Source: a virus. From it: DNA of 64,000 bases. The stretch lies in UHGV virus genome UHGV-1579991; one strand, written 5' to 3'. The translations under genes and the position numbers were made by a program. Below are positions 3,445 through 62,027 of this stretch, piece by piece. The notes beneath the pieces are model-generated. The model worked only from the letters and a program-made list of their open reading frames with translations, searched no databases and was not told the DNA's origin. Position 1 is the stretch's first letter. Each line of letters begins with the position of its first letter.

Positions 3445-4719
3445 TTATATATTTGACAGCTGTTTGCGTTGCAAAATTGCATGACCGCAGTCATATACTG
3501 CAACATAACCTGCATCAATCATCTCTTGCTCATTTTGTCCGCAGTCTTCAATATGTTCTTTTGTCTTTAAATGACACCAGTGTTTGCGAATTGTTGACTT
3601 GTCATCTGACAGTTGCGGATTAAGTGCGAAGTTAGTTGAGTCTACTGGTTCACCTGCAAGATGCTTTCGAATGACATCAATGACTTCATTGTCATCCATC
3701 CATTCGAATATTGTAATGCAAGTGTAGCCAAGCTTAAGAGCAAGCTGAGTTTTGTCGAAGTGATAGAATTTGCTAACATGCTTATTGTGTGTAGTACGGC
3801 CAATTAAATATGCAAAACCATATGTTGAATTGTGTGACCAAGTTGGATTGATTTCAATCAATAATTTGCAATGTTCATTACTGTAATTGAGGTCATATGA
3901 CCATCGCTCAAGATTGACATCATCAAGCCCACAATCAATCCCAAGTTCTTGCAGCAATTTGTCATGCCACCAATGGTTTGCTCGTGATTTTACATGACCT
4001 TGAGCATCACGACATTTAGCAGTCATACAAAAATATGGGACACCATAGCGTTGCATGTTAGTTGACGCAATTTTTTGCAAATCGCCTGCAGCAGACCCAT
4101 ATTTTTGTCGTTTTGTTGCAACTGCTACTGCAATATTGCCAAATTTGTTGCCATATCGTTTCTGTTTAGTTTCAAGTGCTTTGTCAATATTTATGATGCC
4201 TCTTGTACCATGTTCTTTTTCACGTTTAGCTAAAATTGTTTGCATGTCGCCAAGTTTGTTGCCATATCGTTGCAATTTAGTTTCATGCATTTTTGCAATA
4301 TTTGTCCAACTATCACCATAATGTTGTCTATGTGTTGCAGCGCAACGTGCTTTGTCACCAAACATGTGTCCAAACTTTGCTAAACGACGCTCAACAAATT
4401 TTTGCATGTCACCCATGCCATTACCATATCGTTTCTGCTTAGTTGCAACAGCCTTTTGCATATTGACACCTCGATAGCCATAACGCATTTCTATTGTTGT
4501 AGTAATTTTATCACTGATGACTTTTGATTGCTGAGCATACTCAAAACCATATTTACGCAAGCAGCCAATTCGCTTATTATATTTCAAACGAATTTTACCA
4601 TGTGATGTCTTCTTTGGGCCATACCATTCATATGGCGTTTCTGCAATCAATTTATCACGTTCAGCTTCAAGTTCTTTTATTCGAGCTTCAAGAGCTTCAC
4701 CTATTAATTGTGTTGCCAT
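3445..4719 (-). CDS. Free-standing homing-endonuclease-like protein (family A): N-terminal coiled coil, tandem YG-repeats, C-terminal PD-(D/E)xK-like nuclease core
   Basis: N-term GEALEARIKELEAERD; repeats KQKRYGNGMGD / LQRYGNKLGD / KQKRYGNKFGN; C-term LLIEINPTWSHN...GYTCITIFEW; paralogs at 16935-18126 and 60966-62027. Confidence 0.5.
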   Translation of the reverse strand: MATQLIGEALEARIKELEAERDKLIAETPYEWYGPKKTSHGKIRLKYNKRIGCLRKYGFEYAQQSKVISDKITTTIEMRYGYRGVNMQKAVATKQKRYGNGMGDMQKFVERRLAKFGHMFGDKARCAATHRQHYGDSWTNIAKMHETKLQRYGNKLGDMQTILAKREKEHGTRGIINIDKALETKQKRYGNKFGNIAVAVATKRQKYGSAAGDLQKIASTNMQRYGVPYFCMTAKCRDAQGHVKSRANHWWHDKLLQELGIDCGLDDVNLERWSYDLNYSNEHCKLLIEINPTWSHNSTYGFAYLIGRTTHNKHVSKFYHFDKTQLALKLGYTCITIFEWMDDNEVIDVIRKHLAGEPVDSTNFALNPQLSDDKSTIRKHWCHLKTKEHIEDCGQNEQEMIDAGYVAVYDCGHAILQRKQLSNI

Positions 4720-16904: not shown

Positions 16905-16950
16905 TATATGTAAAAATATTGTACAACAATACTGTCATTTTTGCACAGCA
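16905..16950 (-). promoter_or_regulatory. Promoter-like conserved motif containing TTGTACAA
   Basis: Minus-strand GTGCAAAAATGACAGTATTGTTGTACAATATTTTTAC about 35 nt upstream of clamp-loader ATG. Confidence 0.5.
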
Positions 16951-18126
16951 TGGCCGCAATCGTACACAGGCACATAACCAGCGTCAAGCATTTGTTGTTC
17001 ATCTACTTCTGCAGTATGCGCAGCATACAGTCGCTTCTTGTAATTCCACCAATGTTTTCTAATAGTCAATTTGTCATTGCATATGACAGGATTTTTTGAC
17101 AAGTCTGTGCTATCTACACGTTCATTGCATAAATGCTGTCGTATGATTTCTACAACGTCATCAGGGTTATCCCAATCCCATATTGTAATGCATATGTAGC
17201 CTGCTGTAAGTGCTGCTTGAGTTTTTCTAAAATGTCTATCATTAGGAATTGGCAAATTGCGTTTAGATTTGCCAATTGCATATGCAAAGCCAAATGCAGC
17301 ATTATGTGAAAACGATGGGTTGATTTCTATTAGTAGATGCTTATAATGCAAATCATAAGAAAATCTGCCAATATTGACATCATCAAATGTGCAATCAATG
17401 TTAAGTCGTTGCAGCAAAAAATCATGCCACCAACGATTAACCGTTGTAATGGTGCGCCCATTAGCATGCCGACAACGCTCAGTCATAACAAACCAAGGTA
17501 CACCATAGCGTTCAAGATTTGTTTGCATGCGTTTTGCAGTGCCACCATATTCATCACCGTATCGTAATCTGCGTGTATGAACTGCTTTTAATGGGTTGCC
17601 AGCAGAATTGCCATATCGTAGCATCTTTGTTTGCTGCGCTTTAGCAGTAATTACACCATGGTCAGGATAGTGTTCGCGTATTGTTTGCTGCACTTTAGTA
17701 GCATTCCATGTGCGATAGCCGTACTTGTGTAATTTTGTTTGCTGGGCTTTTTGCATGTTGTTATAATATGGGTCGCCATAGCGTTCTTCTTTAATTTTGC
17801 ACATTAACTGTTGGTCGCCAAATGCATTGCCATATTTTGCAAGTTTTGTTGCCTTAAATTTAGTCATGTCGCCAAGCCCATTGCCATATCTTTCTCGTTT
17901 TGTTGCGACACCTTTGTTTGTAAATTCTTTTTAATTGCGCAGTGTTTTCAACACCATATTTACGCAAATTGCTTATACGACTGTTATATGTACGTTTGCA
18001 AATTGTGTATTGTGAGTAGCGTTTATGCTGAGGTCGTTCTTTAGACGCAGTTTGCAATATCACATCTCTTTCCTCTTCAAGTTCTTTTATGCGAGCTTCA
18101 AGAGCTTCTCCAGTTAATGGTTCCAT
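16935..18126 (-). pseudogene. Homing-endonuclease-like gene (family A paralog) split by a frameshift
   Basis: N-terminal ORF 17860-18126 (LTGEALEARIKELEEERD...ISNLRKYGVEN) and C-terminal ORF 16935-17867 (YG repeats, LLIEINPSFSHN, GYICITIWDWD) lie in different frames overlapping by 8 nt; T-run near 17925-17945. Confidence 0.5.
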
Positions 18127-28397: not shown

Positions 28398-28883
28398 TCA
28401 TTTGTAGTGTTCAGTTATGTATGCAGAGCATAGCAAAACAACTGATACACAAATGACAATGTATGTTGGCGTAATCAGTGTCACATTGAATAACAATGCA
28501 GTCAATGCGCATACTGTTACTGATATGAGTGTTGAAATGAATGCAGCATATGCACTAAACTTGCTTTTTAACAAACGTTCGATGATATATGTTGTCGCAA
28601 CAGACAGTAAGACTACACATGCAAATAACAACAGCCAAGTTGAGTTTGACGTTGTCGGCTCTTCAATAAACTGCAATGTTGCTGATGGCACTTCAATATT
28701 GTTTGATGCTTGTAATGTGCCACTTGCAGCATCTGCGTACATCACAGTTAAGTAGTGTCGTTGAATTTCTGCTGCGTCTACTTTATAGATTCTATGCCAT
28801 GCAACATCTGATATGATGTATGTTGCAGCCATAAATGCAGCAATGCATAGCATATAAGAGCCAAACTTTGCAATCGGTTTCAT
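28398..28883 (-). CDS. Integral membrane protein (about 4 TM helices)
   Basis: Start at MKPIAKF (ATG 28883-28881); hydrophobic stretches throughout. Confidence 0.45.
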   Translation of the reverse strand: MKPIAKFGSYMLCIAAFMAATYIISDVAWHRIYKVDAAEIQRHYLTVMYADAASGTLQASNNIEVPSATLQFIEEPTTSNSTWLLLFACVVLLSVATTYIIERLLKSKFSAYAAFISTLISVTVCALTALLFNVTLITPTYIVICVSVVLLCSAYITEHYK

Positions 28884-29260
28884 GCAAATATATTTTTGTT
28901 TGTATATGTACATAAAAGAGCAAGTTCTCCACATTGAGAACTTGCTCAGCTGACCTGTTACCAGGTGAAAGCGTGGTGCAGCACCTTGTGCTGCAATGGC
29001 TATGCTGCCATCGCCATAACGGGCTGAGCATTGCCCAGCATCATTACACGACCAGCTGCATTAAGCGTACGCTTTGCTTTGTTGAAAAATTTGCCAGTTA
29101 TCTGGTATCTGCACATCTATTCAAGCGACCTACTATGCAATCAAATGCCTGTCGAGCCCAATGTTTGAGCAGTTGTTTGTCAGATGCTCAGCTGACTGCA
29201 GTCTTTCTGAGTGTATCAAGTTCAGCGATTCTGCATCTTTGCTAAATGGCAATGGTTCAG

Positions 29261-29341
29261 GTGGACTCGCCGAGAATCGAACTCGGGTCTTACATAGCGC
29301 ATCCTTGACTTGGTCCTGTAAACAGGGTTGTCAACATGCAT
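29261..29341 (-). other. tRNA-like element: clean T-arm and 3' acceptor strand, no matching 5' acceptor strand found
   Basis: Minus-strand ccgag-TTCGATT-ctcgg then cgagtcc-a; upstream sequence does not supply GGACTCG-type partner. Confidence 0.25.
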
Positions 29342-29412
29342 TGCAATACGACAGGACTCGAACCTGCGACCTCGGATTGGACGTCCGCGCTCTTACCGCT
29401 GAGCTACGTATT
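29342..29412 (-). tRNA. tRNA, isotype ambiguous (anticodon region reads CGTCCAAT: UCC/Gly with G33, or CCA/Trp with poor stem)
   Basis: Acceptor GAATACG/CGTATTG (1:72 mismatch), D-arm GCTC-AGCGGTAA-GAGC, T-arm GCAGG-TTCGAGT-CCTGT. Confidence 0.55.
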
Positions 29413-29506
29413 CTTATCAATTGACTGCACTGCAATGCAATCAATCGTGCCAATGATATTTGACACGCATAATTGCAGTTATGCGTAACAATTCAAATGT
29501 CATTTG

Positions 29507-29579
29507 AGCCAACTGCAGGAATCGAACCTGTAACCTGCTGAGTACAAATCAGCTGCTCTACCAATTGAGCTAAGTTGGC
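29507..29579 (-). tRNA. tRNA-Thr (anticodon TGT)
   Basis: Acceptor GCCAACT/AGTTGGC, D-arm GCTC-AATTGGTA-GAGC, anticodon stem GCTGA/TCAGC, loop TTTGTAC, T-loop TTCGATT. Confidence 0.75.
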
Positions 29580-29661
29580 ATAAAGTCGTTGGGCCATTGC
29601 AACCCAAACCTATCATCTTTGCCTAACCAAAGATGCAAGCGCTCTCTTACACCACGACTTG

Positions 29662-29733
29662 TAGCCGAACTTGGAGTCGAACCAAGCTTTCGAGAATGAA
29701 AATCTCGCGTCCTAACCGATAGACGAAACGGCC
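29662..29733 (-). tRNA. tRNA-Glu-like (anticodon TTC), acceptor stem irregular
   Basis: Anticodon stem CGAGA/TCTCG, loop TTTTCAT, T-arm CTTGG-TTCGACT-CCAAG; acceptor GGCCGTT vs TTCGGCT has mismatches at 6:67 and 7:66. Confidence 0.5.
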
Positions 29734-29916
29734 AAGAGCAGTTCAAGTCTGCAGCATTGAACTGCGGAAACAATGCCTGTACGGGCAACCAATTGTGCAG
29801 ATACAGCGACATTGCAAAATCACACCGAACCAAGTTTGTGGCTCTTCTGTCTCATAAAAACAAGTAATCATTACACTTGGCACCAATGATTTTGATGTAA
29901 AAATCGGTGTGTTACG

Positions 29917-30001
29917 CGGAGAGTAAGGGATTCGAACCCCTGGTACGTTGCCGTACAGTGGTTTTCAAGACCACCGCCATCGACCGCTCGGCCAACTCTC
30001 C
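29917..30001 (-). tRNA. tRNA-Ser (anticodon TGA), long variable arm
   Basis: Acceptor GGAGAGT/ACTCTCC, anticodon stem GTGGT/ACCAC, loop CTTGAAA, variable arm GTACG-GCAA-CGTAC, T-loop TTCGAAT. Confidence 0.75.
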
Positions 30002-30194
30002 ATAAAACATTGCATAAGCATTCTTATCTCTTGATGAGGCCAAGTAGCTAATTTGGCAAGTTTGTTATATCTATCGTGACTGTTGCAGTTTGTTGTCACT
30101 CAATACACAAAACTTTCGAACATTCATTGACAACACTGCAATATCGCTTTTTAAGCTCAGCCATCAATGTATTTATGCAATGTATAACAATTCG

Positions 30195-30276
30195 TAGCCA
30201 AACCGGGACTTGAACCCAGACTCCTAATGGAACAACATTTTGAGTGTTGCGTGTCTACCAATTCCACCATTTGGCC
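30195..30276 (-). tRNA. tRNA-Leu (anticodon CAA), long variable arm
   Basis: Acceptor GGCCAAA/TTTGGCT, anticodon stem CAACA/TGTTG, loop CTCAAAA, T-loop TTCAAGT. Confidence 0.7.
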
Positions 30277-30373
30277 ATTTGCAAATGCAAGCTGTTTCAC
30301 AACTGTTTGCATTTGCATTTGCATTGTTTAACACACTAAAATATGATTCATCTAATCAAAAACCAGAGAATTG

Positions 30374-30446
30374 TCGAGAATGTGCGATTTGAACGCCAAT
30401 TATACGTCCCAAACGTATCGTGTTACCGGATTACACTACATTCTCG
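30374..30446 (-). tRNA. tRNA-Pro (anticodon TGG)
   Basis: Acceptor CGAGAAT/ATTCTCG, anticodon stem ATACG/CGTAT, loop TTTGGGA, T-loop TTCAAAT (T-stem imperfect). Confidence 0.65.
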
Positions 30447-30453
30447 TTAATTG

Positions 30454-30524
30454 TTGAACTGTCTGGACTCGAACCAGAAATATATCATCCAAAGTGATAT
30501 GTGTTACCATTACACCACAGCTCA
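30454..30524 (-). tRNA. tRNA-Gln (anticodon TTG)
   Basis: Acceptor TGAGCTG/CAGTTCA, D-stem GTGT/ACAC, anticodon stem TATCA/TGATA, loop CTTTGGA, T-arm TCTGG-TTCGAGT-CCAGA. Confidence 0.75.
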
Positions 30525-31037: not shown

Positions 31038-31535
31038 TCATTCGATGTTACCAGATAATATCCGAATGGCATCCAATGCATTTTCTCGTATCAAGCCAAA
31101 CTTACCTATAACTTGAACAAAATGTTTGTCATTTTCAAATGTTGAGTCATCAAGAATGACATATTGTTTGATGTTATGTTTCTCAACAAGCGCAGGCACT
31201 GCAGCAAATCTGTCATGAAAGCCCTCAGCATAAATTGATGGCAACAAATAGCCTGGCATATTGCGCTTAAGCCACATTATCTTGCAGTCATCAAGAATAG
31301 CCCAACTGCTTATTAAGCATATTGCACCAACATCTGACATTTGACAAATGTATCTCAACCAGCCAACACAACGTTCATCGAACAATTGGCCAAACTCATC
31401 TTTTGACTGCACATCCATGTTTGCACGATGCTTTGACATGTGCAACATATTGAGATTATCTTGGCTATTCAGAACACCATCAATGTCCAAGAATATCACT
31501 TTGTCAGGCCAAATCACTTTGTTTGTTGTGTTCAT
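31038..31535 (-). CDS. HAD-superfamily hydrolase-like protein
   Basis: Motif I FLDIDGVL near N-terminus. Confidence 0.45.
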   Translation of the reverse strand: MNTTNKVIWPDKVIFLDIDGVLNSQDNLNMLHMSKHRANMDVQSKDEFGQLFDERCVGWLRYICQMSDVGAICLISSWAILDDCKIMWLKRNMPGYLLPSIYAEGFHDRFAAVPALVEKHNIKQYVILDDSTFENDKHFVQVIGKFGLIRENALDAIRILSGNIE

Positions 31536-41949: not shown

Positions 41950-44900
41950 TCAATTACATGCTGAATGTCCGCAGTTGGTGCATCGAACACAGCCGTCAAA
42001 CTTGACCATGTCACCACCGCATTCAGGACACTTTGCATACATCTTTGAGCCATCTTGAATGTGTAGTTTCAATGCGCGACCAATTGCTTTGCAGAATGTG
42101 CCAACAGATGCAAAGCTTTTTGCAGTTTGGTCGACAATTTCACCAAGGTCGATGCCATTGCGAAGCATCGTTGAGTACAGTCGAGTAATTGTTTGCTGCT
42201 CATCTGAACCAAGACGTTCTGAGATATTGTCATAGTGTTGCAAGAATGACAAATTATCACCAAGCTTGTAGTGCTTCTTATCAGTCTTTGTGATTGTCGT
42301 TTGTTCAATGCCTTGCAACTTGTCAAATTCGTCTTTGTCAAGTTCAAATGCAAAGATTTCATAGGGTCGACCATCATCACAACCTACAAGAATACACCAC
42401 TTACGCTTATACACTGATACACAATACACTGCAGCAGGCAATACAGGTTTTCGTTTTGAGCGATGACCAGACTGCAAGACATGCGACTTATCCTTAGACT
42501 GCTTATCATCTTTTACGAGAACACCTGCACGTGAGCCATCTCGATAAATTGTGCAACCCTTGCAGCCAGATTTCCATGCAGTCAGATAAATTTCACGAAC
42601 AAGCTCTTTTGTTGCAGAGTTTGGAATATTGACTGTTACAGAAATTGATGAGTCAATGTACTTTTGCAACGCGCCTTGCAGTTTAACCTTGCCAATCCAG
42701 TCAACATCTTCAGTAGTTGCCTTATAGTATGGTGATTGAACAAGCAATTCATCAATGACTGCTTGCGAAGCATTTGACAACCAAGCTTTGATACGAGACA
42801 TTTCTGCTTCTGACCATTCAATGCCAGTATCTTTGACAAGGGTGAATTTGTCATCACCAAGCTGCACTCGTTTGCAAATCCACTGCATCAATGGGTAGTG
42901 AACTACAGCGTATTCAATGAACTTGTCACCAGTAGTCTCATCAATGAAGTTGATGTCTGCTTCATTATCAACTGCAGTAGGCTTTCGACGACGTTTGTGC
43001 AGTGGCATAAAAACAGGTTCAATGCCAGAAGTTGTCTGAGTCATCAAAGCTGTGGTGCCAGTTGGCGCAATTGTTGTTGTGTTGATGTTTCGACGACCAA
43101 ATTGTTGATAAGTTGTGATGTGCTCATCATCAATCAGTTCAGATAACATACGCTGAATGAACTTTGACTGCACATCTGTGTCATAGTCGAATATTGCAAA
43201 TGAGCCACGAATCTCTGCCAAGTCAATTGACGCTTCATAAGTCGCCTTTACAAGCCATTGTTGCATAGTGACTGCGAAGTCAATTGACTCTTGTGAACCA
43301 TAGCGCAAGCCAAGCATTGCCATTGCATCGCCAAGTGCAAGAAAGCCCATGCCATATCGACGAGTATTTGTCAATTTGTCATAGACTTTATGCCACAAGT
43401 CAAGCTCAGTTTTCTTAATGTCAAATGATTCTTTGTCTGATTCAACCTTTGCAATGATTCGTTGAACTGCTTCAATTTCAAGCTGCACAAGGTCATCCAT
43501 GATGACTGCACAGTCATATGTATCTTTGTAGAATGCTTCAAAGTCAAATGATGCATCAGCAGTCCAAGGATTAAGCACATATGCAGTCAAATTGCGATGT
43601 GATAAAATGCAGCTTGCATATGCTGCAAGAGGCTGTTCACCGCACTGCCTGTTGTTTACAAATACTTGCATATGTCTGTCATTTGTATCATTGACAGCGT
43701 CAAATGACCCTACAAAAAAGTTGTGATAATCATCTACAGTGCCATTATACACATCTTCTACACCATCAAGTTCAACAGTGTGTACCCTATGATTGTAGTA
43801 ATCTGCAAACTGCTTAAACTTTCTGTATGACGCATGAATAGCAGCGTCAACATTGTTAGATTTGCATTCATTTGCAAATTCTTCATAATTTGGTCGTTTG
43901 CCAAGTTTTTGCTTTGCTGCAGTATATACAAGCACTTGTTCTTTAGACCATTTTGCTTGCTGAGCTGCGTGGCCGCATTCGGCAGAACAATATGCAACTT
44001 CTCTATAAAACCAGTGCGCCCAAAATTCAGAGCCGCAATGTTCGCAAATACGTTTAACATACACTTGTTTGTCAACAAATTTAGTGTCATAGCCCATATT
44101 GCGAACTTTAATTGCTGTTGCTATGCATCTGCTATCAATGCCAACTAAATCAGGATATTTAACATTAGCGCGCGTTGCACAATGACTTAAAAATGCATCA
44201 ATAGAGCCAAATGTTTCTACTAATTTATTGTACCTGTAGCCAGACCATGCAACAGTATTATTGCCTGGCGCATAGCGCATATAGTATTCTAATTCTTTGC
44301 GACTAAGGCCTCTTCCAACTTTTGCAGTGCATTGCGTAACATAGTCTACAATTGATTGCACAGTTGTATCAATATCATATCTGCCATTACGTTCACCAGA
44401 AGTAGATGCACTCATTTTAGCAGAATACTGTGCAAAACGTTCTGCATTTGCTTTAATTTTGTATATTGGATTGTTAGTGCCTCTACGTTCAAGTGCATGT
44501 AATGCATCATGCTCTTTTTTGCTTAGTACTTGTAAGTTATTTGGGTCATTGTTTAATGAATTGCCATCGATATGATGCACTACTGTGTGTGTAGCATCAA
44601 ACTGTTCAGCATGACAGTATTCTGCTATTAAACGATGCTCAAACTTATATACACCATTATTCAACACTGCATAATATGGTGCAGATTTGCTATTTGTTTG
44701 ATAGCTAAGCACTTCATCAAATGAACATTGTTGTCTTGCAATAATTGCTAAGCTATCACCATGCTGTAATTGTCGTGCTTCTTTGTATGTGCCATCTGTT
44801 AACTTAAACTTGTGATTACCTGTGCAACGAATAACATCACCAGAATCAAGTGTAACTTTGTATATTTGCACATTTGAGCCTGTTTTGCGTGGATGCCGCA

Positions 44901-45936
44901 TTTTGCGTACAACTACATTATTGTTGTCATCATAGCAATACACATTAACATCATCGCCAATATCTGCAAGTTCACGTATTGTCATTGTTTGTCTGCCATC
45001 AGCAAGCATAACTTTAGTGCTGCCAACAATGCATGGATTTGTTGAGCGCTCTTCATACATTTTACCGTATGCTTTCGAGTTCGACTCTTCCATAATGCGG
45101 TCCCAAAAGAACACGCCGGGTTCTGCAGATGCCCATACATTGTCAACAATTTTGTCAAATAATGCTTTTGCATCTGATGTCTTATGCAGCTCTTGGCCAT
45201 CAGAGCCACGCCAAATATGTTCAAACTGCTGTTCTGCAAGCACTGCACGCATAAATGCATCAGTAAGCTTGATGGAAATGTTTGCACCTGTGATTTTTGT
45301 CAAGTCTTTTTTTGCGTCAATGAACTTATCTGCATCAGGATGCTCAATTGACAATGACAACATCAATGCGCCACGCCTGCCATTTTGTGCAACTTCTTTT
45401 GTCGATGTTGAAAAGCGTTCCATAAATGACACGACACCAGACGTCGTAATAGCACTGTTATGTACTTCTACGCCTTCTGGGCGAATATGCGACAAATCAT
45501 GGCCAACACCACCACGACGTTTCATCAACTGAACTTGCTCTTCATCTGTTTTGAAGATGCCGCCATATGAATCTGCATCATTGCCTATTACATAGCAATT
45601 TGACATTGATGTGTAACCGCCAAGACCGATACCAGCCATTGGAGAACCACCAAGTACAAATCGCTTAAATGGCTCAAGCAAATATGCAAGTCGCTCTTTT
45701 GACAATACACGTTTGCCTGTCTGTTCTTCAAATTGTGATTCTATACGGTCAAATTCATTGACCCAGCGCTCATGCATATCAGACAATGAGTGTTCATACA
45801 AATTGTCTTTGTCATGATGCAAGTATTTTGACATGCATATGTCAGCAGCCATTGAGTCGCCCGTAAATTCATGCGTCAGTGTAGTGTGCACTTCAGCATA
45901 TTCAGGCGACCCAATTTGAATGGGACGTTTTGTCAT
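41950..45936 (-). CDS. nrdJ: Ribonucleotide reductase, class II (adenosylcobalamin-dependent, NrdJ-like), interrupted in-frame by an intein
   Basis: Start at MTKRP (ATG 45936-45934); extein motifs STNP...CGEQPL (reconstitutes NPCGE), TIYRDGSR, C-terminal CPECGG...CTNCG zinc ribbon; total ORF 1328 aa is far longer than a typical RNR. Confidence 0.75.
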   Translation of the reverse strand: MTKRPIQIGSPEYAEVHTTLTHEFTGDSMAADICMSKYLHHDKDNLYEHSLSDMHERWVNEFDRIESQFEEQTGKRVLSKERLAYLLEPFKRFVLGGSPMAGIGLGGYTSMSNCYVIGNDADSYGGIFKTDEEQVQLMKRRGGVGHDLSHIRPEGVEVHNSAITTSGVVSFMERFSTSTKEVAQNGRRGALMLSLSIEHPDADKFIDAKKDLTKITGANISIKLTDAFMRAVLAEQQFEHIWRGSDGQELHKTSDAKALFDKIVDNVWASAEPGVFFWDRIMEESNSKAYGKMYEERSTNPCIVGSTKVMLADGRQTMTIRELADIGDDVNVYCYDDNNNVVVRKMRHPRKTGSNVQIYKVTLDSGDVIRCTGNHKFKLTDGTYKEARQLQHGDSLAIIARQQCSFDEVLSYQTNSKSAPYYAVLNNGVYKFEHRLIAEYCHAEQFDATHTVVHHIDGNSLNNDPNNLQVLSKKEHDALHALERRGTNNPIYKIKANAERFAQYSAKMSASTSGERNGRYDIDTTVQSIVDYVTQCTAKVGRGLSRKELEYYMRYAPGNNTVAWSGYRYNKLVETFGSIDAFLSHCATRANVKYPDLVGIDSRCIATAIKVRNMGYDTKFVDKQVYVKRICEHCGSEFWAHWFYREVAYCSAECGHAAQQAKWSKEQVLVYTAAKQKLGKRPNYEEFANECKSNNVDAAIHASYRKFKQFADYYNHRVHTVELDGVEDVYNGTVDDYHNFFVGSFDAVNDTNDRHMQVFVNNRQCGEQPLAAYASCILSHRNLTAYVLNPWTADASFDFEAFYKDTYDCAVIMDDLVQLEIEAVQRIIAKVESDKESFDIKKTELDLWHKVYDKLTNTRRYGMGFLALGDAMAMLGLRYGSQESIDFAVTMQQWLVKATYEASIDLAEIRGSFAIFDYDTDVQSKFIQRMLSELIDDEHITTYQQFGRRNINTTTIAPTGTTALMTQTTSGIEPVFMPLHKRRRKPTAVDNEADINFIDETTGDKFIEYAVVHYPLMQWICKRVQLGDDKFTLVKDTGIEWSEAEMSRIKAWLSNASQAVIDELLVQSPYYKATTEDVDWIGKVKLQGALQKYIDSSISVTVNIPNSATKELVREIYLTAWKSGCKGCTIYRDGSRAGVLVKDDKQSKDKSHVLQSGHRSKRKPVLPAAVYCVSVYKRKWCILVGCDDGRPYEIFAFELDKDEFDKLQGIEQTTITKTDKKHYKLGDNLSFLQHYDNISERLGSDEQQTITRLYSTMLRNGIDLGEIVDQTAKSFASVGTFCKAIGRALKLHIQDGSKMYAKCPECGGDMVKFDGCVRCTNCGHSACN
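43645..45033 (-). mobile_element. Intein (about 463 aa) with Hint blocks and an HNH endonuclease domain, apparently ending in Gln
   Basis: Begins at Cys after STNP (CIVGSTKVMLADGRQTMTIRELADIGDD, block A); block B GNHKFKLTDG; HNH motif VVHHIDGNSLNNDPNNLQVLSKKEHDALH; zinc-finger-like CEHCGSEF...CSAECGH; block F VYNGTVDDYHNFFVG; ends ...VFVNNRQ immediately before CGEQ. Confidence 0.65.
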
Positions 45937-45973
45937 TGTAACAGTGCATTTAAGTGTTTTAACAGTTTTATGT

Positions 45974-46007
45974 ATAAATTGTACAACAATGGGCAAAATT
46001 TTGCATC
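45974..46007 (-). promoter_or_regulatory. Promoter-like conserved motif containing TTGTACAA upstream of RNR
   Basis: Minus-strand GATGCAAAATTTTGCCCATTGTTGTACAATTTATAC. Confidence 0.5.
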
Positions 46008-52219: not shown

Positions 52220-52675
52220 TTAAAATTTGCCATCTGCTACTTGAAAGCATCGATAGCCAAGCTCTCGCCATTTAGCGACCATGGAATCGCGGTCTTCAAG
52301 CACAAATGCAATTTGTTGCAGTTCGTCTTCAGACAATGCTTCTACAAGCAATTCAGGTTTGACAAGCGTATCATGACGTTTATCACCATCTTTTCGCATA
52401 AGAATTTGCGGATTAACGATTCTGTAATCTGTATGCTGTGCAAGCCAAACTTCTGTCATTTGTCTGCAGCTTTCACGACGGCCTGTGCAGAATATGATTC
52501 TATAGCCAACTTGCTGCAAATCGCAAAGCAAGTCAAGCACAGTCATAATAGGCTTGTCTTCATAACAGTGTGCATAAAATGCATCCCAATCTTTGTTTTG
52601 CTGTTGAAGATATTTTAGACGGTCGCCAACTTTTGAAATTGTTCCGTCAATGTCGCATATGATGATATTTGCCAT
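52220..52675 (-). CDS. HAD-superfamily phosphatase
   Basis: Motif I IICDIDGT, motif II FCTGRR, acidic motif DGDKRHD / EDRD. Confidence 0.6.
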   Translation of the reverse strand: MANIIICDIDGTISKVGDRLKYLQQQNKDWDAFYAHCYEDKPIMTVLDLLCDLQQVGYRIIFCTGRRESCRQMTEVWLAQHTDYRIVNPQILMRKDGDKRHDTLVKPELLVEALSEDELQQIAFVLEDRDSMVAKWRELGYRCFQVADGKF

Positions 52676-59851: not shown

Positions 59852-60874
59852 TCATTGTTGTTTATGCCAGCCATATGATGCCTGACCAGCATCATACACT
59901 TCTACAAAACCATGGTCGTACATAAAATCTTCATTACGAGTGCCCTTGCCACCATTAGTGCCAAGAATACGGTCTGCACCATGCATAAGTAGCATGTTAT
60001 TTGTGACATGTTGCTTTGTCAGCATATTGAACCAGTGTTTGCTATATGACAAACCAAGACCATCAAAGCCCAGCTTTGTGTACACACCACCGTCAAACTT
60101 GCTTAAATCACAATATGATAACACAGATTCAGGGTCATATGTCTTGATAAAGTGCTTAAAGATTCGTTCAGCACCACCAACAACTTTGGTTGCTGCACAA
60201 AGACGTAGCAATTCATATTGATAGCGCTTATTGTATCGTGGACGACCAAATGTCATAAGTTGATGAATGACATAACCACCAAGCAACTCAAGTGGATGAC
60301 CTTCAATCAACGCAAGATTGATAAAATTGCCTGAGCACTTGCCTTGCAAATGATGTTCAATCAAAAATTGATTTGCAGTATACTTGTCAATTTCAACAAC
60401 TTTAAGCTTGCGAGCATATACAATCTTTGATTTGTCTACGATTTGATGCTTGATGTGATTGATAACTTTCTTGGCGTCATCCCAATCCCACACATGAATA
60501 CAATGAAAGCCTGCAGCTTTTGCAATGTCTGTTTTCTTTGCATGAACATCACAAGGCAAATGTGCATCTTTTGCATCATGCATAAACAAGTGCTCAAATG
60601 AATGCGTACTGTTATGCGAAAATGCAGGATTGATGTTAATGACAATATTGTCATGTCGAAAATCGAAGACTTCATCACCAATGACAAAGTTGCGCTCAAA
60701 ATCTATACCGACATGTTTGAGCAACACTTGATGCCACACGTCTTTATAGGCTGATTCAAGCTTGCTTAGCTCATCACAGTTTGCAATGTTTTTGTAACGT
60801 TGAATAGCAGCATCAAAGTCAAGATTGACTTCAGCGTAGTCTGCATTTTTATCATAGTGAAATTTTGAGCTCAT
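59852..60874 (-). CDS. Homing-endonuclease-like protein with N-terminal PD-(D/E)xK-like domain related to the C-terminal domain of family A
   Basis: Start at MSSKFHYDK (ATG 60874-60872); IVININPAFSHNSTH...GFHCIHVWDWDD. Confidence 0.45.
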   Translation of the reverse strand: MSSKFHYDKNADYAEVNLDFDAAIQRYKNIANCDELSKLESAYKDVWHQVLLKHVGIDFERNFVIGDEVFDFRHDNIVININPAFSHNSTHSFEHLFMHDAKDAHLPCDVHAKKTDIAKAAGFHCIHVWDWDDAKKVINHIKHQIVDKSKIVYARKLKVVEIDKYTANQFLIEHHLQGKCSGNFINLALIEGHPLELLGGYVIHQLMTFGRPRYNKRYQYELLRLCAATKVVGGAERIFKHFIKTYDPESVLSYCDLSKFDGGVYTKLGFDGLGLSYSKHWFNMLTKQHVTNNMLLMHGADRILGTNGGKGTRNEDFMYDHGFVEVYDAGQASYGWHKQQ

Positions 60875-60890
60875 GCGTATAATTTTGTGT

Positions 60891-60935
60891 ATATAATTAT
60901 TGTACAACATGCAAATGCACATTGCATTTGATACA
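60891..60935 (-). promoter_or_regulatory. Promoter/operator element shared by homing-endonuclease genes
   Basis: Minus-strand GCAATGTGCATTTGCATGTTGTACAATAATTATATAC; near-identical element at 62041-62085. Confidence 0.5.
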
Positions 60936-60965: not shown

Positions 60966-62027
60966 TTATTTTGTATTGCTACGCGTCATTGTTAAATGAC
61001 CGCAATCATACACATCAACTTCTGTTTTGCCAAGCATACATGTATGACAATTTATTTTGAAATCTGCTGCAGTGTAATCAGGATAGTTTAGCGGAGATTC
61101 TTTTGACAAATCAATTTCAATTGTGTCAGTAGTTTTAAGTTGTTCAGTGCCTGCAATGATATCTGCAATAAGATTGATAACTTCTTCTTGTGAATCCCAA
61201 TCAAACACAGTTATGCAACGATAGCCTGCATCAAGTGCAAGTTTTGTTTTGTTGTAATGGTATTGAGCACCAATAACATTGTTGTCTTTTGCTCGACCAG
61301 TTAAATATGCAAAACTAACAGTGCAGTTGTGCGTAACTGTTGGACAAATTTCTATAAGTAACTTTGCAGGCTCATACTGCAAATCATATGTTTGATTATT
61401 GATGTTAAACTCGTACTGTGTATCAATTGCCAACTGTCGTAATAACGCATCATGCCACATCATATTACATTTAGAAATTGTTTTGGATGACAATCTGCAT
61501 TGCGGCAATTGACATGGCCAATCTACGCCGTACATTTGTTGTGTTGTTTGACGCATTTTGTTAACATCACCAAAATGATTGCCATATCGATGCTCTTTGG
61601 TTTTAAGCGACTGCTCAATATTGACATTGCCTACACAACCATAACGTTCAAGTTTTGTTGCAGCAGTTTTGCTAACATCACCATGCCCATTGCCAAATTT
61701 GGCGACTTTAGTTGCAAGTATTTTATGACTTGGGCCAAATGCATTGCCATACAATTCTTGTTTAGTCGCAAGCATTTTGTCGATATTACAACCAGCGCCA
61801 TAAGTGTTATGCATAGTTTGCATACGTTGTCGAATAAATTTTGGCACAGATAAAGGACTTTCTACACCATATTTGCGTAAGCAACTGATTTTGCATGCGT
61901 ACTTTTGCTTGATGACAGAATGTGCATTTCGACGTCCTATGTAAGTGTTTTCTGATGTAGCAGCAAGCTCTGCATCTCTAAGAACTTCAAGTGCAGCAAT
62001 TCGTGCTTCAATTTCTTCAGATGTCAT
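60966..62027 (-). CDS. Free-standing homing-endonuclease-like protein (family A paralog)
   Basis: N-term EEIEARIAALEVLRD, YG repeats (ELYGNAFG, ERYGCVGN, HRYGNHFGD), C-term LLIEICPTVTHN...GYRCITVFDWD. Confidence 0.5.
   Translation of the reverse strand: MTSEEIEARIAALEVLRDAELAATSENTYIGRRNAHSVIKQKYACKISCLRKYGVESPLSVPKFIRQRMQTMHNTYGAGCNIDKMLATKQELYGNAFGPSHKILATKVAKFGNGHGDVSKTAATKLERYGCVGNVNIEQSLKTKEHRYGNHFGDVNKMRQTTQQMYGVDWPCQLPQCRLSSKTISKCNMMWHDALLRQLAIDTQYEFNINNQTYDLQYEPAKLLIEICPTVTHNCTVSFAYLTGRAKDNNVIGAQYHYNKTKLALDAGYRCITVFDWDSQEEVINLIADIIAGTEQLKTTDTIEIDLSKESPLNYPDYTAADFKINCHTCMLGKTEVDVYDCGHLTMTRSNTK

What the first reader, a model, noticed from the sequence alone, without database searches (positions are those of the whole stretch)
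29261..30524. tRNA cluster with two irregular members
Seven tRNA-like genes on the minus strand (Thr-TGT, Glu-TTC-like, Ser-TGA, Leu-CAA, Pro-TGG, Gln-TTG and one ambiguous) plus a tRNA-like 3' half at 29261-29341 whose T-arm and 3' acceptor strand are clean but which has no matching 5' acceptor strand. The tRNA at 29342-29412 has an anticodon region (CGTCCAAT) that folds either as UCC with G33 or as CCA with a poor stem. The Glu-like tRNA has two acceptor-stem mismatches. These could be degenerate, intron-containing, or processed in an unusual way.
Basis: seen in the sequence. Interest (0 to 1): 0.4.

Follow-up and report, generated by a model that had tools for sequence, protein, structure and literature searches.

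The report
Phage tRNA cluster plus two-piece tmRNA
The "orphan half tRNA" at the end of this phage's seven-tRNA cluster is the first half of a split (circularly permuted, two-piece) tmRNA gene, a ribosome-rescue RNA of a kind already known from some phages. It is too divergent to pass the standard database thresholds.

Summary
Seven tRNA genes lie on the minus strand at 29343-30524, followed by a clean T-arm and 3' acceptor strand at 29286-29260 with no 5' partner upstream. The partner exists about 100 nt downstream: GGGCUCG (29159-29153) pairs with CGAGUCC (29269-29263), giving a 7-bp stem with the alanine identity pair G3:U70. ARAGORN calls a permuted tmRNA at 28909-29351. Rfam's permuted-tmRNA model aligns over its full length, but at 30.7 bits it is below the gathering score of 47. 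Eight copies from related phage contigs fall into two alleles of the tRNA-like domain. These differ by fully compensated changes: 182 of 182 cells paired, 7 double-sided pairs in the formal count (9 with the side hairpin) and none broken. The intervening segment and tag frame stay 95-99% identical. A tag frame (…NAQPVMAMAA-stop) and an intrinsic terminator follow.

Of the two irregular tRNAs, Glu has U6:U67 and U7:U66. The Gly(UCC)-like gene has G1:G72, a 4-bp anticodon stem and G33, and it reads codons the phage hardly uses (GGA+GGG, 7% of Gly codons). Phage two-piece tmRNAs are already described, so this is a divergent new member of a known kind. Expression, charging and tagging are untested.

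The parts
30453..30524 (-). tRNA-Gln (UUG), first gene of the RNA island
   Evidence: ARAGORN; Rfam tRNA 64.4 bits. Acceptor stem is 7/7 paired with one G:U. Relatives carry three divergent alleles, and all keep the helices.
30373..30446 (-). tRNA-Pro (UGG), weak T stem
   Evidence: ARAGORN; Rfam 49.9 bits. T stem UGGCG/CGCAC has only 3 Watson-Crick pairs. The other alleles score up to 64.7 bits, in L026.
30194..30276 (-). tRNA-Leu (CAA), long variable arm
   Evidence: ARAGORN; Rfam 54.2 bits. G1:U72.
29916..30001 (-). tRNA-Ser (UGA), long variable arm
   Evidence: ARAGORN; Rfam 56.5 bits. In L002 it is replaced by an aberrant Ser-like sequence that keeps the UGA anticodon loop. It is also not called in L029.
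29661..29733 (-). tRNA-Glu (UUC) with G1:U72, U6:U67 and U7:U66
   Evidence: ARAGORN; Rfam 46.4 bits; stem check. The D arm is of bacterial tRNA-Glu type (my own recollection of the E. coli sequence, not tested here). The gene is identical in four of five copies; L026 differs at position 32, U to G.
29506..29579 (-). tRNA-Thr (UGU)
   Evidence: ARAGORN; Rfam 67.7 bits. Relatives differ at position 38, C or A.
29343..29413 (-). tRNA-Gly(UCC)-like gene, the most irregular member
   Evidence: ARAGORN anticodon UCC; Rfam 44.1 bits, the lowest of the seven. It has a G1:G72 mismatch, a 4-bp anticodon stem CGGA/UCCG and the loop CGUCCAA with G33. Its cognate codons GGA+GGG are only 7% of the phage's Gly codons. 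L025 adds a C4:A69 mismatch.
29260..29340 (-). tmRNA acceptor piece
   Evidence: Elements, 5' to 3': P2 strands 29340-29333, 29308-29301 and 29298-29290; side hairpin 29326-29315; T arm 29286-29270; acceptor 3' strand 29269-29263; A-CC 29262-29260. Evidence: ARAGORN tmRNA*; RF04321 alignment; co-fold; compensatory changes in the T stem, acceptor stem and side hairpin. The 5' end is inferred, not mapped.
29160..29259 (-). Intervening segment, removed on processing; holds two hairpins
   Evidence: 95% identical between the two alleles, while the flanking tRNA-like-domain halves are 40% and 64% identical. The second hairpin GAGCA/UGCUC becomes GGACA/UGUCC in L002, which is 2 compensated pairs.
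28914..29159 (-). tmRNA coding piece
   Evidence: Elements, 5' to 3': acceptor 5' strand GGGCUCG 29159-29153; D-loop analogue 29152-29141; P2 strands 29140-29110; hairpin 29105-29094; tag frame; two hairpins 28995-28977 and 28966-28953; terminator. Evidence. The 5' end is inferred from the tRNA-like geometry (an RNase P site).
29000..29095 (-). Tag reading frame
   Evidence: Reads GKFFNKAKRTLNAAGRVMMLGNAQPVMAMAA-stop if translation resumes at GGC 29095-29093 (ARAGORN). An in-frame alternative resume codon is GCA 29077-29075 (Rfam alignment). ARAGORN; RF04321 alignment. The frame is open in all 8 copies, with 1 synonymous and 2 conservative changes. The context AUAACUGGCAAA resembles AUAAAUGGCAAA at the resume codon of a standard phage tmRNA in L008.
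28914..28947 (-). Intrinsic terminator closing the island (12-bp stem, then UUUU)
   Evidence: Terminator scan. The stem is conserved and the loop varies among copies. The next gene starts at 28883, from the 161-aa gene calls on related contigs.

Best explanation
The region is an RNA island in a large T4-like phage. Seven tRNA genes are followed by a circularly permuted ssrA gene that encodes a two-piece tmRNA.

Shown here:
- The gene order is acceptor piece, then a 100-nt spacer, then the coding piece.
- The two pieces can form a tRNA-Ala-like domain in trans. It has a 7-bp acceptor stem with G3:U70, a T arm and long P2 pairing.
- These helices are maintained by compensatory substitutions between two natural alleles.
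- A conserved open frame ending in ...MAMAA-stop follows, and then a terminator.

Inferred, not shown:
- The island is transcribed as a precursor.
- Host RNase P cuts 5' of G29159, and tRNA 3'-processing enzymes plus the CCA-adding enzyme finish the acceptor piece. Only CC is encoded.
- Host alanyl-tRNA synthetase charges the RNA through G3:U70.
- Host SmpB delivers it to stalled ribosomes, which resume on the tag frame and mark the nascent peptide for proteolysis.

Six of the seven tRNAs match the phage's preferred codons and probably supplement or replace host tRNAs. The seventh, the Gly(UCC)-like gene, is structurally deviant and reads codons the phage avoids. It is probably decaying or serves some other role, such as a processing handle.
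For: - ARAGORN calls tmRNA* with a tag in the window, L001, L026 and L029.
- Rfam RF04321 (tmRNA_permuted) aligns all 213 model positions, E = 2.4e-4 in the local search. It places the T arm, acceptor stem and P2 as described.
- Minimum-free-energy and co-folds recover the T arm and the long-range acceptor stem independently in both alleles, at about -50 kcal/mol each.
- Covariation: 182/182 cells paired, 7 pairs changed on both sides, and slid controls only 25-39% paired. Three compensated pairs lie in the stem that bridges about 107 nt, and G3:U70 is invariant. Adding the side hairpin gives 9 double changes, 2 wobble-compatible single changes and 0 broken pairs out of 24.
- Segment identity between alleles: acceptor piece 40%, coding-piece tRNA-like part 64%, spacer 95%, tag frame 99%. 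All 8 copies carry matched halves.
- An intrinsic terminator lies at 28947-28918.
- Precedent: phage two-piece tmRNAs are documented (PMC9004378).
- Codon match for six tRNAs: CAA 61%, CCA 46%, UUG 32%, UCA 44%, GAA 71%, ACA 49%.
Against: - The Rfam score is below the gathering threshold (30.7 vs 47). The alpha-type model gives only 12.8 bits.
- No convincing pseudoknot 1 lies upstream of the resume codon, only a 4-bp hairpin.
- The resume codon is ambiguous, so the tag is 31, 25 or fewer residues.
- Allele B has a 6-nt T loop, a C53:G61 pair and a different P2 register, so its function is less certain.
- Covariation rests on essentially one contrast, between two alleles.
- No SmpB-like motif is in the 64-kb window. 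The rest of the genome was not examined.
- There are no expression, processing or charging data.
Confidence: 0.8

Rival explanations
1. The 3' half is a dead fragment: a tRNA pseudogene or a scar left by recombination or homing-endonuclease activity. On this view the ARAGORN tmRNA call is a false positive.
For: - The Rfam score is below gathering.
- The cluster is a recombination hotspot with swapped tRNA alleles and an endonuclease gene inserted next to it in L025 and L027.
- ARAGORN fails on allele B.
Against: - A scar would not keep a complementary strand 100 nt away through three double substitutions while preserving G3:U70.
- It would not keep T-stem and hairpin complementarity after complete sequence replacement.
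- It would not be followed by a conserved open frame ending in AA-stop and a terminator.
Confidence: 0.03
2. It is a real two-piece tRNA-like RNA, but its job is to interfere with host trans-translation rather than to tag proteins. It would titrate SmpB or AlaRS, as proposed for the tRNA-like-domain-only RNA of mycobacteriophage DS6A.
For: - The window has no phage smpB.
- There is no clear pseudoknot 1, and the tag is unusually long and atypical.
- The DS6A precedent is cited in PMC4131195 and PMC11915505.
- The tRNA-like domain, not the tag, is the part that diversifies.
Against: - The tag frame is the most conserved segment: 99% identical, open in 8 of 8 copies, with a canonical ...AA-stop ending.
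- The resume context resembles that of a bona fide standard phage tmRNA in L008.
- A pure decoy would not need the 150-nt coding part.
Confidence: 0.12
3. On the irregular Gly member: it is a fully functional tRNA-Gly(UCC). Its odd anticodon arm (G33, 4-bp stem) would be an adaptation that escapes a host anticodon nuclease, not decay.
For: - Both programs score it as a tRNA.
- Anticodon-loop changes that evade tRNA-targeting defences are documented for phage tRNAs (PMC10264068, PMC11555353).
- Point differences among relatives fall in anticodon loops: Thr position 38 and Glu position 32.
- RNA-repair-type domains are encoded nearby.
Against: - GGA and GGG are 4% and 3% of the phage's Gly codons, unlike the other six tRNAs.
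- There is a G1:G72 mismatch, and L025 adds a further C4:A69 mismatch.
- U33 is almost universal in elongator tRNAs (established knowledge).
Confidence: 0.3

Closest known systems
Two-piece tmRNAs of marine T4-like phages (Methylophilales phage Melnitz, pelagimyophages such as HTVC008M and Mosig, cyanophages; PMC9004378)
   Same: - Phage-borne permuted ssrA in a T4-like myophage.
- Acceptor piece upstream of the coding piece.
- Detected by ARAGORN as tmRNA*.
- Presumably relies on host SmpB.
   Different: - No blastn similarity to any tmRNA in 50,697 GenBank phage records.
- No glutamine riboswitch or any other Rfam family at gathering score.
- The capsid relates it to the PAU, Tenacibaculum, Chryseobacterium and Lak phage group rather than to pelagimyophages.
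- The alpha-type model scores only 12.8 bits, whereas Melnitz groups with alphaproteobacterial ssrA.
- It lies at the end of a 7-tRNA cluster.
Bacterial two-piece tmRNA (Caulobacter type; Rfam RF01849 alpha, RF01850 beta, RF01851 cyano, merged in RF04321)
   Same: - Permuted gene order.
- tRNA-like domain assembled in trans, with G3:U70.
- T arm UUCGAUU.
- P2 pairing between the pieces.
- Tag ending in AA.
   Different: - Below the gathering score of RF04321, and far below that of the lineage-specific alpha model.
- Long tag of up to 31 residues, ending MAMAA.
- A hairpin where pseudoknot 1 is expected.
- Not found in any of 185,579 species-representative genomes by exact pattern.
Standard one-piece phage tmRNAs (locus L008 from IMG/VR; Lak phages; mycobacteriophage Bxz1 group)
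   Same: - L008 comes from a phage whose topoisomerase is 32% identical, and its tmRNA lies downstream of the same gene.
- Its tag also starts GK.
- Its resume context AUAAAUGGCAAA resembles ours.
   Different: - L008 is unpermuted and scores 95.9 bits on RF00023.
- Overall sequence similarity to ours is weak: 13 of 500 shuffles reach the observed score.
Phage T4/T5-type tRNA gene clusters
   Same: - Tandem same-strand tRNA genes without encoded CCA.
- Some have imperfect stems.
- They are presumably processed from a polycistronic precursor by host enzymes.
   Different: - This cluster ends in a tmRNA.
- Individual tRNA genes occur as highly divergent, compensated alleles in genomes that are otherwise 92-99% identical across the locus.

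Membership tests
Two-piece (permuted) tmRNA, Rfam RF04321 | Permuted gene order: T arm and 3' acceptor strand upstream of the 5' acceptor strand and tag frame, on one strand | tested here: met
   Acceptor piece 29340-29260, spacer 29259-29160, coding piece 29159-28914.
Two-piece (permuted) tmRNA, Rfam RF04321 | 7-bp acceptor stem formed between the pieces, with the G3:U70 alanine identity pair | tested here: met
   GGGCUCG/CGAGUCC in allele A and GGGGGUG/CACCUCC in allele B. There are 3 compensated pairs, and G:U is invariant in 7 distinct sequences.
Two-piece (permuted) tmRNA, Rfam RF04321 | T arm with a T-loop-like UUCGAnn loop; no anticodon arm; P2 helix joining the pieces | tested here: met
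   CCGAG-UUCGAUU-CUCGG, with 2 compensated pairs. P2 is predicted by the Rfam alignment and the co-fold. Allele B has a 6-nt loop and a shifted P2 register.
Two-piece (permuted) tmRNA, Rfam RF04321 | Tag reading frame with no start codon, ending in a hydrophobic ...AA followed by a stop | tested here: met
   ...NAQPVMAMAA-UAG, open in 8 of 8 copies. The resume codon is not resolved (GGC 29095 or GCA 29077).
Two-piece (permuted) tmRNA, Rfam RF04321 | Score at or above the family's gathering threshold (47 bits) | tested here: not met
   30.7 bits, E = 2.4e-4 in a 751-nt search; absent from the gathering-threshold scan. This is a curation cut-off, not a structural feature.
Two-piece (permuted) tmRNA, Rfam RF04321 | Pseudoknot 1 upstream of the resume codon | tested here: inconclusive
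   Only the hairpin CCAG-AUAA-CUGG (29105-29094) is predicted. The tools used do not predict pseudoknots.
Two-piece (permuted) tmRNA, Rfam RF04321 | Processing into two RNAs, alanylation, SmpB binding and trans-translation | not testable with these tools
   Needs RNA and biochemical data. No SmpB-like motif is in the window.
Alpha-, beta- or cyanobacterial tmRNA lineages (RF01849/RF01850/RF01851) | Lineage-specific sequence and structure beyond the tRNA-like domain (gathering score 50 bits for the alpha model) | tested here: not met
   The alpha model gives 12.8 bits over model positions 92-155 only. No beta or cyano match is listed at E <= 10, although same-clan overlapping matches are suppressed in the output.
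Standard one-piece tmRNA (RF00023) | 5' acceptor strand first, tag frame, pseudoknots, then T arm and 3' acceptor strand | tested here: not met
   The order is reversed here. RF00023 gives only an 18.5-bit fragment on the acceptor piece of L026, against 95.9 bits for the genuine standard tmRNA in L008.
tRNA (RF00005), for the seven cluster members | Cloverleaf scoring above 29 bits, with an anticodon call | tested here: met
   44.1-67.7 bits, with anticodons from ARAGORN. Gly, Glu and Pro have non-canonical stems.
   The complementary 5' strand is followed by a 12-nt D-loop analogue and P2, not by D and anticodon arms. ARAGORN reports no intron.

The most novel reading that the evidence does not exclude
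This would be an independent origin of tmRNA gene permutation inside a phage lineage, the PAU/Lak-related T4-like phages. Their cultured relatives mostly infect Bacteroidota, which have one-piece tmRNA. The permuted gene would derive from a phage-borne standard tmRNA like that of L008, not from capture of an alpha-, beta- or cyanobacterial two-piece gene. Its tRNA-like domain and the neighbouring tRNAs would be diversifying as compensated allele cassettes, under pressure from a homing endonuclease or from host tRNA-targeting defences.
Probability: 0.25. Interest if true: 0.6.

Novelty: new member of a known kind. Interest (0 to 1): 0.4.

Why it matters
- **Annotation.** A genuine tmRNA gene is missed at Rfam gathering thresholds, and its first half reads as a broken tRNA. 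ARAGORN misses allele B altogether.
- **Structural proof.** The two naturally occurring, fully compensated alleles give unusually clean comparative evidence for a trans-assembled tRNA-like domain.
- **Phage biology.** This adds a two-piece tmRNA to a phage lineage outside the marine pelagiphage and cyanophage groups where such genes have mostly been reported. It shows that translation RNAs (tRNAs and the tmRNA's tRNA-like domain) are the fastest-changing parts of otherwise near-identical genomes. That pattern fits the current idea that phage tRNAs are shaped by host tRNA-targeting immunity.

Tried and rejected
- **Rfam at gathering thresholds:** only the seven tRNAs.
- **blastn of the whole island against 50,697 phage records:** only tRNA-sized hits, none to the tmRNA. 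blastn of L008's tmRNA found nothing.
- **More relatives:** IMG/VR by topoisomerase, by the neighbouring protein and by DNA pattern gave only two close contigs. The metagenome scan gave one more. The protein-database route gave four more contigs.
- **Host clues:** no exact tmRNA pattern and no capsid relative in 185,579 species genomes. The sample identifiers appear in no paper. Host and habitat therefore stay unproven. The ENA sample labels (ZELL14, COST17, SHET22) look to me like human-gut study codes, but that is my reading only.
- **Synteny:** no tRNA or tmRNA next to the topoisomerase genes in Chryseobacterium phage MA9V-1, uncultured phage LR756502.1 or Lak-B5.
- **Homology to L008's standard tmRNA:** only a weak local match at the resume codon, not enough to claim descent.
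- **CCA (Trp) reading of the ambiguous tRNA:** rejected, because only 1 of 5 stem pairs forms.
- **His-like G-1:C73 reading of its 5' G:** rejected, because it breaks the register.
- **Pairing between the acceptor-piece 5' hairpin and the coding-piece 3' hairpin (10 of 12 pairs in allele A):** rejected, because allele B replaces only one side.
- **L025 endonuclease ORF as a member of the window's paralogous ORF family:** no similarity.
- **TTGCA motif as an island-specific signal:** rejected, because it is genome-wide.
Full report
**What is there.** ARAGORN finds seven tRNA genes on the minus strand between 29343 and 30524: Gln-UUG, Pro-UGG, Leu-CAA, Ser-UGA, Glu-UUC, Thr-UGU and Gly-UCC. It also finds a permuted tmRNA ("tmRNA*") at 28909-29351 with a tag peptide. 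The Rfam tRNA model hits the same seven genes at 44-68 bits, and nothing else in the 64-kb window reaches a gathering score.

**Genome context.** The window belongs to a large T4-like phage. It encodes a Gp23-type capsid protein, a T4-type terminase, both topoisomerase II subunits, a ribonucleotide reductase interrupted by an HNH/intein-like insert, and an NAD-dependent ligase. The capsid protein is 35-39% identical to those of Chryseobacterium phages MA9V-1/2, Sphingomonas phage PAU and Tenacibaculum phages, and 28% identical to Lak phages. No GenBank phage is close at the DNA level. The RNA island sits between the two topoisomerase genes. That site holds no tRNA or tmRNA in MA9V-1, in a 642-kb uncultured phage or in Lak-B5.

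**The orphan 3' half is the acceptor piece of a two-piece tmRNA.** All elements below read 5' to 3' on the minus strand.
- T arm CCGAG-UUCGAUU-CUCGG (29286-29270).
- CGAGUCC-A-CC (29269-29260).
- A 100-nt spacer.
- GGGCUCG (29159-29153), which pairs with CGAGUCC to give a 7-bp stem whose third pair is G:U. That pair is the alanyl-tRNA synthetase identity element of tRNA-Ala and of all tmRNAs (established knowledge).
- A 12-nt D-loop analogue (ACAGGCAUUUGA).
- Three strands that pair with the 5' part of the acceptor piece (P2).
- A small hairpin.
- An open frame ending ...NAQPVMAMAA-UAG (stop at 29002-29000).
- Two hairpins.
- A 12-bp intrinsic terminator at 28947-28918, followed by UUUU.

Rfam's merged permuted-tmRNA model RF04321 aligns all 213 positions in exactly this way. 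It scores 30.7 bits against a gathering score of 47, with E = 2.4e-4 in the local search. The alphaproteobacterial model gives only 12.8 bits. Minimum-free-energy folding of the whole gene and co-folding of the two pieces recover the T arm and the long-range acceptor stem without constraints.

**Comparative evidence.** I collected eight copies of the locus:
- the window;
- two IMG/VR contigs (L001, L002);
- four contigs found through the downstream protein (L025-L028);
- one metagenome contig (L029).

They fall into two alleles of the tRNA-like domain. Allele A is in the window, L001, L026 and L029. Allele B is in L002, L025, L027 and L028. Identity between the alleles varies sharply by segment:

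| Segment | Identity between alleles |
|---|---|
| Acceptor piece | 40% |
| tRNA-like 5' part of the coding piece | 64% |
| Spacer between them | 95% |
| Tag frame | 99% |

The changes are compensatory. On an in-register alignment, 182 of 182 cells form standard pairs, against 25-39% when the partners are slid by one to three columns. Seven pairs change on both sides: three in the acceptor stem that bridges about 107 nt, two in the T stem, and two in a spacer hairpin in L002. G3:U70 never varies. Adding the side hairpin of the acceptor piece (CCUG/CAGG replaced by UUGC/GCAA) gives 9 double changes, 2 wobble-compatible single changes and no broken pair among 24 pairs. All eight copies carry matched halves. 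This rules out a dead tRNA fragment, and it is the main reason for my confidence. The caveat is that the evidence is essentially one contrast between two alleles. Allele B also has a 6-nt T loop, a C53:G61 pair and a different P2 register, which is probably why ARAGORN does not call it.

**The tag.** ARAGORN resumes at GGC (29095-29093), giving a 31-residue tag. The Rfam alignment places the consensus resume codon on the in-frame GCA at 29077-29075, giving 25 residues. A standard one-piece tmRNA in the distantly related phage contig L008 scores 95.9 bits on RF00023 and has the tag GKETFAFAA. Its resume context AUAAAUGGCAAA resembles AUAACUGGCAAA here. However, the local alignment is matched by 13 of 500 shuffles, so this is a hint and not proof. 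Among the eight copies the frame stays open, with one synonymous change and two conservative changes (M to T, A to S). I found no convincing pseudoknot 1, only the hairpin at 29105-29094.

**The irregular tRNAs.**
- **tRNA-Glu** has G1:U72 and two U:U mismatches at 6:67 and 7:66. Its D arm is otherwise typical of bacterial tRNA-Glu (my own recollection of the E. coli sequence, not tested here). The sequence is identical in four of five copies; L026 differs at position 32.
- **The Gly(UCC)-like gene** is the lowest-scoring member. It has a G1:G72 mismatch, a 4-bp anticodon stem and the loop CGUCCAA with G at the nearly universal U33 position. The alternative CCA (Trp) reading leaves no stem.
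- **Codon usage separates the Gly gene from the rest.** The other six tRNAs read major phage codons: CAA 61%, CCA 46%, UUG 32%, UCA 44%, GAA 71% and ACA 49%. GGA and GGG are only 4% and 3% of Gly codons. L025 carries an extra C4:A69 mismatch. I therefore lean towards decay or a non-decoding role for this gene, but I cannot exclude an adapted functional tRNA.
- **None of the genes encodes a full CCA**.

**Mechanism, shown versus inferred.** Shown: the gene anatomy, the structural conservation, the open tag frame and the terminator. Inferred from established tmRNA biology (Keiler, Shapiro and Williams 2000, as cited in PMC9004378 and PMC11915505): transcription of a precursor, cleavage by RNase P at G29159, 3' trimming and CCA completion of the acceptor piece, alanylation through G3:U70, SmpB-dependent entry into stalled ribosomes, and tagging. 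No SmpB-like motif is in the window, so host SmpB is presumed. A decoy role, titrating SmpB as proposed for the DS6A tRNA-like RNA (PMC4131195), is the main functional rival. The strong conservation of the tag frame argues against it.

**Comparison with what is known.** Phage two-piece tmRNAs are documented. The Melnitz study found 53 ARAGORN-called permuted tmRNAs among 133 unique phage tmRNAs. Fifty were from marine or aquatic phages, and the table also lists some soil- or human-associated phages (PMC9004378). The 2025 tmRNA database lists 79 unique bacteriophage sequences (PMC11915505). This is therefore a new member of a known kind. It differs in four ways:
- It fails all Rfam thresholds.
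- It has no detectable sequence similarity to other phage tmRNAs.
- It lies in a phage lineage where a relative (L008), and by the published table Lak-A2, carry standard tmRNAs.
- It is not recognised by the alphaproteobacterial model, and no beta- or cyanobacterial match is listed.

Whether it arose by an independent permutation is open. I put that at about 0.25.

**Verdict.** The interpretation needed correcting: this is a permuted tmRNA, not a degenerate or intron-containing tRNA. The finding is solid, moderately interesting, and not categorically new.

Noticed in passing
window 30373-30524 and 29916-30001; L001:14789-14941, L002:14800-15430, L025:75-227, L026:127-278: In phage contigs whose tmRNA-locus DNA outside the RNA genes is 92-99% identical, whole tRNA genes occur as highly divergent alleles that keep the anticodon and all helices. 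tRNA-Gln has three alleles and tRNA-Pro has three. tRNA-Ser is replaced by an aberrant Ser-like sequence in L002 and is also not called in L029. The alleles assort independently of the tmRNA allele. Single differences fall in anticodon loops (Thr position 38, Glu position 32). This could reflect recombination among co-circulating phages or selection by tRNA-targeting defences.
   Followed up: partly
L025:1305-2144 (Logan ERR13912692 contig); partial copy at the start of L027: A 279-aa ORF with a DUF559/Vsr-like endonuclease domain (25.9 bits) and an N-terminal Cys-rich motif is inserted between tRNA-Gly and the allele-B acceptor piece. Its stop codon lies inside the acceptor piece. It looks like a free-standing homing endonuclease. 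Allele B may be the cleavage-immune version of its target.
   Followed up: partly
window 3445-4719, 16935-17867, 59852-60922, 60966-62027 (all minus strand): Four paralogous ORFs (30-46% identical) carry repeated ...RYGN... motifs and a conserved C-terminal LIEINP..SHN...W(D/M)D block. Pfam gives only a weak DUF7487 match. They are possibly a family of mobile nuclease genes scattered through the genome.
   Followed up: partly
window 31038-31535 and 52220-52675 (minus strand): RNA-repair-type domains: a HAD domain of the 'Swiss Army Knife' RNA repair proteins, about 0.5 kb upstream of the tRNA cluster, and a PNKP phosphatase domain (107 bits). Both are compatible with repair of cleaved tRNAs.
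   Followed up: no
whole window: The palindrome TGCA occurs 1,149 times (one per 56 bp), about five times the base-composition expectation. It is spread evenly along the window and frame-biased in ORFs (NNT-GCA). Strong TG, CA and GC dinucleotide excess (odds about 1.65) and TA/CG depletion account for it. It is unusual for a phage to be enriched in a 4-bp palindrome rather than depleted.
   Followed up: partly
window 41950-45996 (minus strand): The ribonucleotide reductase large-subunit gene (1,348 aa) contains an internal HNH endonuclease region (residues about 440-740) between reductase segments. This suggests an intein or an inserted homing endonuclease.
   Followed up: no
L008:18430-18778: A distantly related IMG/VR phage contig (topoisomerase 32% identical) carries a standard one-piece tmRNA (RF00023, 95.9 bits; tag GKETFAFAA) about 6.5 kb downstream of the topoisomerase large-subunit gene. 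ARAGORN called no tRNA genes in the 22 kb held for that locus.
   Followed up: partly
window 28883-28934: The mechanical ORF 28398-28934 (178 aa) overlaps the terminator. Gene calls on related contigs give 161 aa, so the real start is the ATG at 28883, after the terminator.
   Followed up: yes
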